Shown here: positions 28,701 through 64,000 of the stretch, piece by piece | How the letters are laid out: each line of letters starts with the position of its first letter | Numbering within the stretch: the first letter of the stretch is position 1 | From: Escherichia phage HMD-P3 | Length of the DNA stretch: 64,000 bases | Sequence record: PQ462667.1 | Direction: 5' to 3' (one strand) | The notes under the pieces: generated by a model | Seen by the model: the letters and a program-made list of their open reading frames with translations, nothing else | Told to the model about the DNA's origin: nothing | Database searches by the model: none | Translations under genes and position numbers: made by a program

Positions 28701-28985
28701 AAACTCTTTAGTTTACTAAGGCTATTAGCTCGGCGTAACTACAGCACCTTCGCTTCAAGCGGAAGGAACCGCGTCATCTCGCAAACCCGATACACTATTC
28801 AGTTGCCGCTGAATCTAGTGGACTAATCTAGAACTTCTCCCGAATCATAGGGATCGTGCTTTTTGGCAGCCAGTCCTAGGTCGAGCTAATACCTTAGTGA
28901 ACTATGATGAGGATTTCTCCTCATCAATTTATATAAATATTATAACAAGAAATTAAGCATCAAGCAACTGCATTTTTCTTGAAAT

Positions 28986-61283: not shown

Positions 61284-61592
61284 ATGAGCGAACAGGTAAA
61301 TCAAAACTATGAAGGACACGTTGATGACCAGTCCATCATACTTTGGGAGAAGGAGGGAGAACAAGTAAGATTAACAGTATCTGAATTTCGTGGGAATCTA
61401 TACATGGGTATTCGTTACTGGCTTCTTGATATTAATGATGAATGGTTTCCAACGAAATCTGGCTTCTCTTTTCCTTACACCCTAGAAACAACATCACAGC
61501 TTTTCTATGCGTTTACACAGATTCTTAGCGAATCTGAGGTTTTACATGAAGTACAGAAACGAGCTGAAGAACTCAAAGCCAAGAATGCCTAG
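61284..61592 (+). CDS. hypothetical protein
   Basis: 102-aa ORF; terminator hairpin gccaagaa-tgcctag-ttcttggc-ttttt overlaps the stop. Confidence 0.5.
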   Translation: MSEQVNQNYEGHVDDQSIILWEKEGEQVRLTVSEFRGNLYMGIRYWLLDINDEWFPTKSGFSFPYTLETTSQLFYAFTQILSESEVLHEVQKRAEELKAKNA

Positions 61593-61619
61593 TTCTTGGC
61601 TTTTTCTTTATAAATGTAT

Positions 61620-61648
61620 TTGCTTTCAACTCAGTTTTGTTATATAAT
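61620..61648 (+). promoter_or_regulatory. T5-type promoter (TTGCTT-N17-TATAAT) with conserved leader
   Basis: ttgctttcaactcagttttgttatataat, then atttatataaattgatgagaggatc. Confidence 0.6.
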
Positions 61649-61659
61649 ATTTATATAAA

Positions 61660-61866
61660 TTGATGAGAGGATCAATTATGAACATAACACTTCCAAAAAT
61701 TCAAGCAAAGTTAAACCTAGTATCAACTGCTAGAAATAACTATCTAGATAACTTTGGTGGAATCAACGATAAAGCGTACAAAGATGCGTGGTTGAAAGAA
61801 GCGCAAGAGTTAGCCGATCTCACTACTCAGTATAGTAAAGAACTACAGGTAGAAATGAATGACTAA
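61660..61866 (+). CDS. hypothetical protein
   Basis: 68-aa ORF behind the promoter/leader module. Confidence 0.5.
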   Translation: MMRGSIMNITLPKIQAKLNLVSTARNNYLDNFGGINDKAYKDAWLKEAQELADLTTQYSKELQVEMND

Positions 61867-62830
61867 TGTAAAAGACTTTATTAAACGTTGTCAAGAAGCA
61901 TATTACCAGGGAATGTCTTTAATCTCTGACGAAGAATATGATCGTCTGATTAAAAGATTTCCGTTAGAAGAAGAGATCGGGCCTAAGGGTGATATTCCAC
62001 ATCTGTATCGTATGTATTCTTTACAGAAAGTTTATTATAATCGTGGAGATAAACCTCCGTTTAACCCATTAGGTCAGGTAGAAACTGATAAGTTAGATGG
62101 TTGTGCGATTTCTCTGTTATATATTAATGGCGAATTTGTTCAAGCACTAACTCGTGGTAATGGTATTCTAGGGAACGATGTCACAAGCAACGTAAGATTG
62201 CTGAACATTCCTAAAAAGATTTCCCAAAAAGTACCTACTCAAATCACTGGTGAAGTTCTAATTACAAAAGAAGTAGAAAATAAACGTAACTTTGCCTCTG
62301 GTGCTATTAACCTCAAAGATAGTGATGATTTCGTACAGCGTATCGGAGAAGGTGGTTTAATCTTCGTTGCATACGGTATCCAGTGTTCTGGTGAATCTGT
62401 AGGTATTACAGAAACGTATTTAAAAGATATGCTTTGGCTAGAGAATGAGAACTTCTTAACAGTTGTTAATGTGCGTTCCTTCTTTAAGTGGATTCCAACG
62501 GATGGTAAAGTTGTTCGTATTAATGACAACAACAAATTCTTCCGAGAAGGCTGGACTAATAAATTTCCTCGTGGAGCATTCGCTATTAAAGAGGATGAAG
62601 AAGGTGAGATTACTACTCTTACTAAAGTTGAATGGCAGGTAGGGGCTTCTGGTAAAGTAACTCCAGTTGGTTATTTCGAACCGGTAATTATTGATGATGC
62701 TACAATTGTTAAGGCGACTCTTAATAACGTTGATTATATTAACTCTCTCGATCTAGAGATCGGTTGCCAGATTCGAGTAATTCGTGCTGGTGGTGTAATC
62801 CCGTGCATAGTAGAGCGAGTATACGATTAA
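61859..62830 (+). CDS. ligA: NAD-dependent DNA ligase, adenylation-domain subunit
   Basis: KxDG adenylation motif in ETDKLDGCAISLLY. Confidence 0.8.
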   Translation: MTNVKDFIKRCQEAYYQGMSLISDEEYDRLIKRFPLEEEIGPKGDIPHLYRMYSLQKVYYNRGDKPPFNPLGQVETDKLDGCAISLLYINGEFVQALTRGNGILGNDVTSNVRLLNIPKKISQKVPTQITGEVLITKEVENKRNFASGAINLKDSDDFVQRIGEGGLIFVAYGIQCSGESVGITETYLKDMLWLENENFLTVVNVRSFFKWIPTDGKVVRINDNNKFFREGWTNKFPRGAFAIKEDEEGEITTLTKVEWQVGASGKVTPVGYFEPVIIDDATIVKATLNNVDYINSLDLEIGCQIRVIRAGGVIPCIVERVYD

Positions 62831-62973
62831 TACATAACCCTTTGCTACCCATCTACCATATCGGAATTATAAAGTGGTTATTGACATTTTCGCCGCTTAG
62901 GTATATACTATTATCATTCAGTTGAGGGATAGAAAGTTATGGCGAGGGTAAGCAAAGTTAGTTAAAATTGTAG

Positions 62974-63002
62974 TTGCTAAATGCTTAAATACTTGCTATA
63001 AT
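62974..63002 (+). promoter_or_regulatory. T5-type promoter (TTGCTA-N17-TATAAT) for ligB
   Basis: ttgctaaatgcttaaatacttgctataat, then atttatataaattgataaggaag; a second TTGACA-N17-TATACT lies at about 62880-62908. Confidence 0.55.
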
Positions 63003-63029
63003 ATTTATATAAATTGATAAGGAAGAAAT

Positions 63030-63812
63030 TTGATGAAAATCGAAATTCCAATACAATGTCCCTCTTGTGGTTCTAAGCTAGATCTTGTCAACGGACAATT
63101 ATTCTGTCGGAATAAGTCCAACTGTCCAGCGCAATCAAGTAAGTTAATTGAGAACTTCTGTACAAAAATGAAGTTAAAGGGCTTTGGCCCAAAAACTATT
63201 GAGAAGCTGGAGCTGACGAAGATTTCAGAACTATTCTACCTAACCGAAGAAGATTTGGTTAGAGCCGTGGGTAGCAAGGTTGCCGCTAAATTAATTAGCG
63301 AATTAAATACTAAAGTTCGCGGAGACATTGACTTTGGTTCAGTTCTCGGTTCTTTAGGAATCCCTCTAATTGGAGAGGTTGCAGCAAAGAAATTATCCCA
63401 AAATTGCACTAGCTTCCACGATGTGAAGGCTGACGGCAAGGCTGGAGAAAACTATAAAACCTGGCTAAATTCCCCACAAGGCAAGGATGTTATTGAATTA
63501 CCGTGGAAATTCTCAACTGGTATCAGAGGTGCAAAAGCTAATATTATCATTACAGATGAATTAGTTGCCCAGCCAAACGGAATCGCGGTATGTATTACCG
63601 GATCTTTGCAAGATTTTGCAAATCGAACGGATGCAACAAACTATTTAGAAAGTCTAGGATATACGGTTAAGAAATCCGTTACCAAAGACGTCAAATACCT
63701 AATCTGTGAGGATGAATCAAAACGTTCTTCCTCATCTTATAAGAAAGCCGAAACGAATGGGATAGAAATCCTGTCGATTAAAGAACTATTGGAGAAAAAT
63801 AATAATGTCTAA
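63030..63812 (+). CDS. ligB: NAD-dependent DNA ligase, C-terminal subunit (Zn finger / HhH / BRCT-like)
   Basis: CPSCGSKL...C...C zinc finger at the N-terminus; separate ORF from ligA. Confidence 0.75.
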   Translation: MMKIEIPIQCPSCGSKLDLVNGQLFCRNKSNCPAQSSKLIENFCTKMKLKGFGPKTIEKLELTKISELFYLTEEDLVRAVGSKVAAKLISELNTKVRGDIDFGSVLGSLGIPLIGEVAAKKLSQNCTSFHDVKADGKAGENYKTWLNSPQGKDVIELPWKFSTGIRGAKANIIITDELVAQPNGIAVCITGSLQDFANRTDATNYLESLGYTVKKSVTKDVKYLICEDESKRSSSSYKKAETNGIEILSIKELLEKNNNV

Positions 63813-64000
63813 ACTGAACTGGAACGTAGAAGGTGTAACCGAGTCTCTGAAAGCAAAAGCCACTGCTCTGGGTGTTGCTGTAATCTCTCAAGAACAAGTA
63901 GCTGCTATCGCTGCTGAACTGGCTGCTGAAACTGGCAAAGACGTTACAGCTCGCTCTGTCGGCTCTAAACTGCGTAAAGAAGGTTTTGAAGTACAGAAAG
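63806..64000 (+). CDS. hypothetical protein, partial (runs off the window end)
   Basis: ATG overlapping the ligB stop (aataATGtctaa); open to the window end; E. coli-like codon usage. Confidence 0.5.

What the first reader, a model, noticed from the sequence alone, without database searches (positions are those of the whole stretch)
61859..63812. Split NAD-dependent DNA ligase with an intervening promoter-bearing spacer
The adenylation domain (KxDG at ETDKLDGC) and the Zn-finger/HhH/BRCT-like C-terminal part are separate ORFs 200 bp apart. The spacer carries two promoter-like elements (TTGACA-N17-TATACT and TTGCTA-N17-TATAAT with the conserved leader), so the halves are independently expressed and must assemble in trans. 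This matches what I recall for T5 ligase subunits and confirms the lineage.
Basis: partly seen in the sequence, partly recalled or inferred. Interest (0 to 1): 0.35.

Follow-up and report, generated by a model that had tools for sequence, protein, structure and literature searches.

The report
T5-type two-gene NAD-dependent DNA ligase
This is the known two-subunit NAD-dependent DNA ligase of T5-like phages, with the already annotated T5 early promoters P-K28b and P-K28a between its two genes, so the finding is real but ordinary.

Summary
ORF 61859-62830 (323 aa) carries domain Ia, the adenylation domain and the OB fold. ORF 63033-63812 (259 aa) carries the Cys4 zinc finger, HhH and BRCT. A 202-bp non-coding spacer with stops in all three frames separates them.

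The window is a T5-like phage. GenBank records name the two genes NAD-dependent DNA ligase subunits A and B. The spacer is 100% identical to T5, where its two promoters are annotated P-K28b and P-K28a.

A homologous pair from Providencia phage PR1 is in the PDB (9HU3, 9I5I) as a "heterodimeric DNA ligase" on nicked DNA. Assembly in trans is therefore already shown for a close relative.

Comparative work added three points:
- All 54 non-redundant related loci are split at the same OB/Zn boundary, with gaps of 51 to 3474 bp.
- Unsplit compact versions (555-578 aa) sit at the same position (ligase-D5-DnaB-primase) in distant T5-like contigs, so the split looks like an in-place gene fission.
- A near-consensus sigma-70 promoter precedes ligB in 50 of 54 loci, but almost never precedes D5 or dnaB. 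The gap is therefore the start of a ligB-D5-helicase transcription unit.

No intron, intein or frameshift is involved. Verdict: already known, low interest.

The parts
61575..61603 (+). Terminator-like hairpin with a T-run after the PC4-like gene. It closes the upstream transcription unit before the ligA promoter.
   Evidence: 12-pair stem followed by TTCTTTAT
61620..61664 (+). T5 early-type promoter (TTGCTT-N17-TATAAT) with the conserved leader ATTTATATAAATTGAT. It drives the small ORF and ligA.
   Evidence: The same element is annotated 'putative promoter' directly upstream of ligA in T5.
61679..61866 (+). Small ORF of 62 aa from the ATG (68 aa from TTG at 61660), of unknown function. It overlaps the ligA start (ATGAATGA). 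It is absent from T5 and present in SSP1.
   Evidence: (phrog_8267, 5.3e-39)
61859..62830 (+). Ligase subunit A, 323 aa: domain Ia, nucleotidyltransferase (KxDG lysine K78) and OB fold.
   Evidence: The AlphaFold model (pLDDT 85) matches 9HU3 chain A with TM 0.89.
62831..63032 (+). Non-coding spacer of 202 bp. It is 100% identical to T5 and SSP1 and more conserved than the flanking coding DNA.
62881..62909 (+). Promoter TTGACA-N17-TATACT, equal to T5 promoter P-K 28b.
62939..62965 (+). Eight-codon mini-ORF (MARVSKVS) behind an SD-like GAGGGA, downstream of P-K28b. Its significance is unknown.
   Evidence: read from the sequence. It is not conserved outside Markadamsvirinae.
62974..63025 (+). 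Promoter TTGCTA-N17-TATAAT (T5 promoter P-K 28a), followed by the conserved leader and the SD AAGGAAG of ligB.
63033..63812 (+). Ligase subunit B, 259 aa: Cys4 zinc finger (C9, C12, C25, C31), HhH domain and BRCT.
63805..64000 (+). Start of the D5-like DNA-binding/transcription factor gene. It overlaps the ligB stop, has no promoter of its own and runs off the window.
   Evidence: (phrog_323)

Best explanation
[quoted passage not shown] Subunit B (zinc finger, HhH, BRCT) supplies the DNA-encircling half found in single-chain LigA. The two are translated from separate start codons and associate non-covalently on nicked DNA to form a LigA-like clamp. That clamp seals nicks and Okazaki fragments during phage replication.

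The 202-bp spacer is a regulatory region. It holds the tandem early promoters P-K28b and P-K28a, which are read by host sigma-70 RNA polymerase. These start a transcription unit made of ligB, D5, the replicative helicase and probably further downstream genes. ligA belongs to the preceding unit, and its transcript probably reads through into ligB.

Shown here:
- the domain content of each half;
- the conserved catalytic and zinc-binding residues;
- identity of the spacer to the annotated T5 promoters;
- homology to a solved heterodimer-DNA complex;
- the split throughout the phage family;
- a promoter before ligB but not before D5 or dnaB.

Inferred:
- actual transcription start sites in this phage;
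- read-through from the ligA unit;
- subunit stoichiometry;
- a requirement for both subunits in nick sealing.
For: - Domains: Pfam and NCBIfam split the LigA profile cleanly between the two ORFs. TIGR00575 positions 63-378 fall in A and 388-651 in B.
- Residues: mapping onto E. coli LigA gives K78=K115, D80=D117, G81=G118, R99=R136, E132=E173, D215=D285 and K244=K314. The Ia residues are Y15, D24, Y27 and D28. The four zinc cysteines are invariant.
- Solved homologue: PDB 9HU3 and 9I5I, 'PR1 phage heterodimeric DNA ligase in complex with 21-mer nicked DNA', match A at 1.9e-104 and B at 6.5e-80. The model of A superposes with TM 0.87-0.89.
- Annotation: ligA, ligB, P-K28b and P-K28a are annotated in T5, and the spacer is 100% identical.
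- Selection on the spacer: it is 100% identical to T5, against 94.9% and 95.9% for the coding DNA (third positions 86% and 92%). Against phiR201 it is 93.6% identical, against 80% and 88.5%.
- Breadth of the split: all 120 best homologues of A are 310-337 aa apart from one 240-aa entry labelled partial. All 54 non-redundant loci are split.
- Promoter placement: a match of at least 10 of 12 lies upstream of ligB in 50/54 loci, of D5 in 1/51, of DnaB in 0/44, and in coding control windows in 10/646.
Against: - No experiment on this phage or on T5 itself was found in the held literature. Heterodimer formation is known only from the PDB titles for a homologue about 55-60% identical.
- The HhH Pfam matches lie below the gathering cut-off.
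- K290 of E. coli LigA is replaced by an invariant arginine (R220), and OB residues R333/T334 are replaced by A/S. Catalytic details may therefore differ.
- Promoter activity rests on a GenBank annotation and on consensus matches, not on transcript mapping in this genome.
Confidence: 0.93

Rival explanations
1. Sequencing or assembly frameshift, or a decaying pseudogene: the ligase is really one gene, or is dead.
For: The two ORFs are in different frames.
Against: - The spacer is 202 bp with 5-6 stops in every frame, so no single indel can fuse the ORFs.
- The same arrangement covers at least 80% of the query in 429 independent phage records, and all 54 non-redundant loci are split.
- Both halves are under purifying selection. 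Against T5, ligA is 94.9% identical in DNA and 98.8% in protein.
- The two chains were expressed and crystallised as separate proteins for PR1.
Confidence: 0.01
2. The spacer is a remnant or an active form of an intervening element (group I/II intron, split intein or translational bypass) that restores a single-chain ligase.
For: Phage genes are often interrupted by introns, inteins and homing endonucleases.
Against: - No Rfam intron match at E<=1, and no significant RNA structure in the spacer (z = -1.0).
- Aligned to unsplit relatives, A ends and B begins inside the short variable OB-Zn linker, with no extra residues that could be intein halves.
- ligB has its own SD and ATG.
- Gaps in relatives range from 51 to 3474 bp and may contain whole genes.
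- The solved homologue has two chains.
Confidence: 0.01
3. The two products work largely apart. A acts as a minimal ligase on its own. B (Zn-HhH-BRCT), made from strong promoters at the head of the replication operon, mainly serves another role, such as a nick sensor or a BRCT scaffold for replisome proteins.
For: - ligB has two dedicated promoters and heads the D5-helicase unit, so B may be made in excess over A.
- In some Vibrio phages the genes are more than 1 kb apart, and in some metagenomic loci more than 3 kb apart.
- Minimal ligases without DNA-clamp domains exist. This last point is from my own knowledge of the literature on Lig E and Chlorella virus ligase.
Against: - A and B co-occur, adjacent and in the same order, in 81 of the 88 loci retrieved with either subunit; the other seven showed only A within the DNA held.
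- The PR1 pair is described as a heterodimer on nicked DNA.
- In E. coli LigA the Zn and HhH domains are needed for nick joining. This rests on established knowledge from the Shuman laboratory and was not tested here.
Confidence: 0.05

Closest known systems
Bacteriophage T5 NAD-dependent DNA ligase subunits A and B (ligA T5p114/AAU05253, ligB T5p115/AAU05254) with promoters P-K28b and P-K28a
   Same: - Same gene order and the same split point.
- 98.8% (A) and 96.1% (B) protein identity.
- The spacer is 100% identical, including both annotated promoters.
   Different: The window has an extra 62-aa ORF between the upstream promoter and ligA, which T5 lacks.
Providencia phage PR1 heterodimeric DNA ligase (PDB 9HU3, 9I5I; released 2026)
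   Same: - Two chains with the same domain split.
- E 1.9e-104 for A and 6.5e-80 for B.
- TM 0.87-0.89 between the model of A and the solved chain.
- Bound to nicked DNA.
- A 192-bp gap that also holds two promoter-like sites (L024).
   Different: - tblastn gives 54% protein identity for each subunit.
- The spacer sequence differs.
Bacterial single-chain LigA (E. coli LigA, PDB 2OWO)
   Same: Same domain order (Ia, NTase, OB, Zn, HhH, BRCT) and the same catalytic motifs. LigA profile positions 63-651 are covered by A plus B.
   Different: - One 671-aa polypeptide against two proteins totalling 582 aa.
- Compact NTase domain.
- About 25-28% identity.
- K290 is replaced by R, and R333/T334 by A/S.
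Unsplit compact phage ligases of 555-578 aa in distant T5-like metagenomic contigs (P0149, P0171, P0224, P0226 and others)
   Same: - 35-43% identity to A and 30-38% to B.
- Same genomic position: (PC4)-ligase-D5-DnaB-primase-(PolA).
   Different: - One ORF, in which a linker of up to about 13 residues joins the OB fold to the zinc finger.
- No promoter-like site at the junction (scores of 7-9 out of 12).

Membership tests
NAD+-dependent DNA ligase (LigA family) | Motif I KxDG with the adenylated lysine | tested here: met
   K78-L-D80-G81 is invariant in 15 relatives and aligns to E. coli K115/D117/G118.
NAD+-dependent DNA ligase (LigA family) | Domain Ia with NMN-binding residues (E. coli Y22, H23, D32, Y35, D36) | tested here: met
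   Y15, Y16 (Tyr in place of His), D24 (D or N in relatives), Y27 and D28. Y15, Y27 and D28 are invariant. Domain Ia is short, about 45 residues.
NAD+-dependent DNA ligase (LigA family) | Nucleotidyltransferase motifs III, IV and V, and the OB fold | tested here: met
   E132, D215-G216 and K244 are conserved. PF01653 scores 7.8e-24 and PF03120 scores 3.8e-22. The position of E. coli K290 is an invariant Arg.
NAD+-dependent DNA ligase (LigA family) | Cys4 zinc finger, HhH domain and BRCT domain | tested here: met
   C9, C12, C25 and C31 are invariant. The GFG and IG hairpin motifs are conserved. BRCT PF00533 scores 33.3 bits against a cut-off of 21.3. The HhH Pfam matches are below cut-off, but the LigA profile is aligned across positions 388-651.
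NAD+-dependent DNA ligase (LigA family) | All domains on one polypeptide; score above the NCBIfam LigA equivalog cut-off | tested here: not met
   There are two ORFs. TIGR00575 scores 176 bits (A) and 104 bits (B) against a cut-off of 444. This is the feature that defines the variant.
NAD+-dependent DNA ligase (LigA family) | NAD+-dependent nick-sealing activity | not testable with these tools
   This needs a biochemical assay. No such assay for T5 or this phage was found in the held literature.
T5-type heterodimeric ligase (Demerecviridae subunits A and B) | Two same-strand genes, A upstream of B, split at the OB/Zn boundary, each homologous to one chain of 9HU3 | tested here: met
T5-type heterodimeric ligase (Demerecviridae subunits A and B) | Physical A-B complex on nicked DNA | not testable with these tools
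   Known only for the PR1 homologue, from the PDB entry titles.
T5 early promoters P-K28b and P-K28a | Sequence identity to the promoters annotated in T5 | tested here: met
   The spacer is 100% identical to AY692264 58281-58482, which carries both promoter features.
T5 early promoters P-K28b and P-K28a | Transcription initiation by sigma-70 RNA polymerase in vitro or in vivo | not testable with these tools
   This rests on the GenBank annotation and on Gentz & Bujard 1985, as cited in PMC7472727. That paper itself could not be read.
Intron- or intein-interrupted gene | Intron RNA structure, or intein residues at the break | tested here: not met
   No Rfam hit. Fold z = -1.0. No extra residues at the junction when compared with unsplit relatives.

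The most novel reading that the evidence does not exclude
The ligase gene of the T5 lineage was split at a domain linker by, or for the sake of, a promoter. In this reading the break is the conserved start of the replisome transcription unit (ligB-D5-helicase-primase). The DNA-binding half would then be made with the replisome genes, possibly at a different level or time from the catalytic half.

In support, every split relative examined carries a near-consensus sigma-70 promoter in the gap, even where the gap is only 51-58 bp. Unsplit syntenic orthologues carry none at the junction.

The gap then also became a landing site for small accessory genes.
Probability: 0.3. Interest if true: 0.4.

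Novelty: already known. Interest (0 to 1): 0.15.

Why it matters
For this scan the value is mainly negative. The feature is a textbook property of T5-like genomes and identifies the lineage.

The comparative results are modestly useful for two reasons:
- They give a clean natural example of gene fission at a domain linker, with unsplit orthologues still present at the same position.
- They tie the break to a conserved transcription-unit boundary.

This could help people working on the PR1 and T5 heterodimeric ligases, and on why T5 genomes keep site-specific nicks. It suggests subunit stoichiometry and timing as variables to measure.

Tried and rejected
- **Rfam** on 61400-64000 at E<=1 gave only a chance U4atac hit on the minus strand and no intron.
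- **RNA folding** of the spacer gave z = -1.0, so there is no evidence of a structured RNA.
- **Terminator scan** found none between ligA and ligB.
- **Repeat search** showed only the shared promoter leader.
- **Literature**: ten full-text searches found no paper on the biochemistry or structure of a T5-type split ligase. One search failed on a term that was too short. Gentz & Bujard 1985 (PMC214212) is not held.
- **ORFs inside the Vibrio phage gaps** had no Pfam hits. PHROGs named one as DprA-like and the rest as unknown. None is a homing endonuclease, so mobile-endonuclease-driven splitting found no support.
- **Mini-ORF** behind P-K28b is not conserved outside close relatives, so I did not treat it as a gene.
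- **Complex prediction** for A plus B was not attempted. The structure tool takes single chains and restricts its input.

Full report
**1. Observation**

The region contains two same-strand ORFs. ORF 61859-62830 is 323 aa. ORF 63033-63812 is 259 aa from the ATG, with an in-frame TTG at 63030.

- The first ORF has the NAD-ligase adenylation domain and OB fold (Pfam 7.8e-24 and 3.8e-22). It contains ETDKLDGC with the KxDG lysine at K78.
- The second ORF has a BRCT domain above the Pfam cut-off, HhH matches below the cut-off, and four cysteines that are invariant across relatives: C9, C12, C25 and C31.
- Against the NCBIfam LigA model TIGR00575 (652 positions), A covers 63-378 and B covers 388-651. 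Together they tile one LigA, with a nine-position gap at the OB/Zn boundary.

The 202-bp spacer (62831-63032) has five or six stop codons in every frame, and the two ORFs are in different frames. No single indel can join them.

TTGACA-N17-TATACT lies at 62881-62909 (11 of 12). TTGCTA-N17-TATAAT lies at 62974-63002 (10 of 12, with TG before the -10).

The 'conserved leader' is real. The 22-mer TATAATATTTATATAAATTGAT occurs nine times in the window within three mismatches, against none in 100 shuffles. In each of eight copies an SD and an ATG follow.

**2. What it is**

The window is a T5-like phage (Demerecviridae, Markadamsvirinae). The 2.3-kb region is 98% identical to Salmonella phage HMD-7 and Shigella phage SSP1, and 429 phage records cover at least 80% of it. 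These records name the genes NAD-dependent DNA ligase subunits A and B. A T5 paper lists ligA AAU05253 and ligB AAU05254 (PMC3632103).

In T5 record AY692264 the spacer carries two annotated features, 'promoter P-K 28b' and 'promoter P-K 28a', between ligA and ligB. The window's spacer is 100% identical to that T5 spacer.

The spacer is more conserved than the genes around it:

| Compared with | Spacer | ligA | ligB |
|---|---|---|---|
| T5 | 100% | 94.9% (third positions 86%) | 95.9% (third positions 92%) |
| Yersinia phage phiR201 | 93.6% | 80% | 88.5% |

The whole spacer therefore appears to be under selection, as expected for a regulatory region.

PMC7472727 states that T5 early promoters share an ATATT discriminator. 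It cites Gentz & Bujard 1985 for the promoters mapped in vitro. I could not read that primary paper.

**3. Assembly in trans**

Both proteins have a solved homologue in one PDB entry. 9HU3 chain A matches at E 1.9e-104 and chain B at E 6.5e-80, and 9I5I holds the same pair.

The chain B sequence is 100% identical to Providencia phages PR1 and PSTCR5, which are T5-like. The entries are titled 'PR1 phage heterodimeric DNA ligase in complex with 21-mer nicked DNA' and were released in January and February 2026.

An AlphaFold model of the window's subunit A (pLDDT 85) superposes on 9HU3 chain A with TM 0.89. It superposes on E. coli LigA with TM 0.69 over the shared domains.

Catalytic residues map onto E. 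coli LigA as follows:
- K78=K115, D80=D117, G81=G118, R99=R136, E132=E173, D215=D285, K244=K314.
- The domain Ia residues are Y15, D24, Y27 and D28.
- Two differences are an invariant Arg at the position of K290, and Ala/Ser at R333/T334.

The importance of those E. coli residues is established knowledge from mutational work on LigA. It was not tested here.

**4. Not an intron, intein or bypass**

- Rfam finds nothing relevant.
- The spacer RNA folds no better than shuffles.
- Aligned to unsplit relatives, A ends and B begins inside the short variable linker between the OB fold (…IIPxI…) and the zinc finger (…CPxC…). There are no extra residues on either side.

**5. How widespread, and where it came from**

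- All 120 best homologues of subunit A, down to 46% identity, are 310-337 aa, apart from one 240-aa entry labelled partial.
- In GenBank the split is present in Tequintavirus, Epseptimavirus, Sugarlandvirus, Hongcheonvirus and Vibrio Demerecviridae.
- In 80 IMG/VR loci plus the GenBank loci, every locus where both halves were found is split. After removing near-duplicates there are 54 split loci, with gaps from 51 to 3474 bp.
- Long gaps hold extra genes. Examples are a DprA-like gene in Vibrio phage pVp-1 and an unannotated 60-codon ORF in Escherichia phage TrudiRoth.

An exhaustive HMMER search with subunit B found mostly stand-alone proteins of about 250 aa. It also found ten compact unsplit ligases of 555-578 aa, 35-43% identical to A and 30-38% identical to B.

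Four of these were traced to contigs. Two (P0224, P0226) sit in the T5 replication module: (PC4)-ligase-D5-like-DnaB-primase-(PolA). P0149 lies next to a gene with a Phage_T5_A2 domain. The contig of P0171 has no recognisable neighbours. The downstream D5-like proteins of P0224 and P0226 are 37% and 44% identical to the D5 protein of phage SSP1 (E 2e-50 and 2e-57).

A rough neighbour-joining tree places most unsplit forms basal to the split clade. One of them, P0226, nests inside it. The tree has no support values and is only indicative. The simplest reading is an in-place fission of a compact phage ligase gene in an ancestor of the T5 family.

**6. The promoter in the gap**

I scored the best sigma-70 match in the 110 nt upstream of several genes in the 54 non-redundant split loci:

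| Region scored | At least 10 of 12 | At least 11 of 12 |
|---|---|---|
| Upstream of ligB | 50/54 | 37/54 (23 perfect) |
| Upstream of ligA | 31/53 | 30/53 |
| Upstream of D5 | 1/51 | 0/51 |
| Upstream of DnaB | 0/44 | 0/44 |
| Coding control windows | 10/646 | 0/646 |

The -10 hexamer is usually 23-31 nt from the ligB start codon. The junction windows of the unsplit genes score only 7-9.

The order A-B-D5-DnaB holds in 42 of the 54 loci; most of the others lack a scorable D5 or DnaB match. Even the 51-58-bp gaps are essentially a promoter plus a leader and an SD.

The break in the ligase therefore coincides, across the family, with the start of a ligB-D5-helicase transcription unit. In the window, a terminator-like hairpin (61575-61603) precedes the ligA promoter, but none lies between ligA and ligB. 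ligB probably receives read-through transcription in addition to P-K28b and P-K28a.

Whether the promoter caused the fission, or merely occupies the gap, cannot be decided from sequence.

**7. Verdict**

Both the observation and the interpretation are right, and both were already known. The genes and promoters are annotated in T5, and a homologous heterodimer has been solved on nicked DNA.

The added comparative points are the family-wide split, the syntenic unsplit orthologues, and the promoter that is conserved in the gap. They are new only in a modest, descriptive sense.

Noticed in passing
window 61649-61660 and 63003-63014; seven further leader copies (1-3 mismatches, except an exact one at 28923) on the minus strand between 15933 and 39665: The conserved leader just downstream of the -10 of the T5 early-type promoters contains a perfect 12-nt palindrome, ATTTATATAAAT. 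The full architecture AAAA-ATGYAK-TTGCTW-N17-TATAAT-ATTTATATAAATTGAT-SD-ATG recurs nine times in the window. A palindrome at +1 could be an operator for a dimeric phage regulator of early transcription. This was not tested.
   Followed up: partly
window 61660/61679-61866: A 62-68-aa ORF of unknown function (phrog_8267) lies between the early promoter and ligA and overlaps the ligA start. T5 lacks it, and there the same promoter abuts ligA directly. SSP1 has it. It is an accessory gene inserted into the ligA leader.
   Followed up: partly
window 62939-62965; L024 (Providencia phage PR1), gap between subunits: An 8-codon ORF (MARVSKVS) with an SD-like GAGGGA follows P-K28b. PR1 has a 9-codon ORF (MADKPDGNE) at the equivalent place. 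Sugarlandvirus and Hongcheonvirus have none. It could be the remnant of a lost gene, or chance.
   Followed up: partly
L008 (Escherichia phage TrudiRoth), about 2815-2997: The ligA-ligB gap is 358 bp instead of 202 bp. It holds an unannotated 60-codon ORF (MLEALEKLFWNG…) just after ligA, while the promoter part of the spacer is kept.
   Followed up: no
L004 1817-2344 (Vibrio phage pVp-1); L003 783-1346 (Pectobacterium phage DU_PP_V): A DprA-like gene (phrog_768) lies between the two ligase genes in pVp-1. A gene annotated DprA-like lies just upstream of ligA in DU_PP_V. The ligase gap acts as a site where small genes come and go.
   Followed up: partly
L091 8001-9674 (P0226, 557 aa): One unsplit compact ligase nests inside the split clade in a rough NJ tree, while the other nine are basal. 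This could be a secondary re-fusion or a tree artefact.
   Followed up: no
PDB 9HU3 title: The PR1 ligase was crystallised on DNA 'containing phage nick sequence'. This points to work on how the phage ligase treats the site-specific nicks of T5-like genomes. I did not look for nick consensus sites in the window.
   Followed up: no
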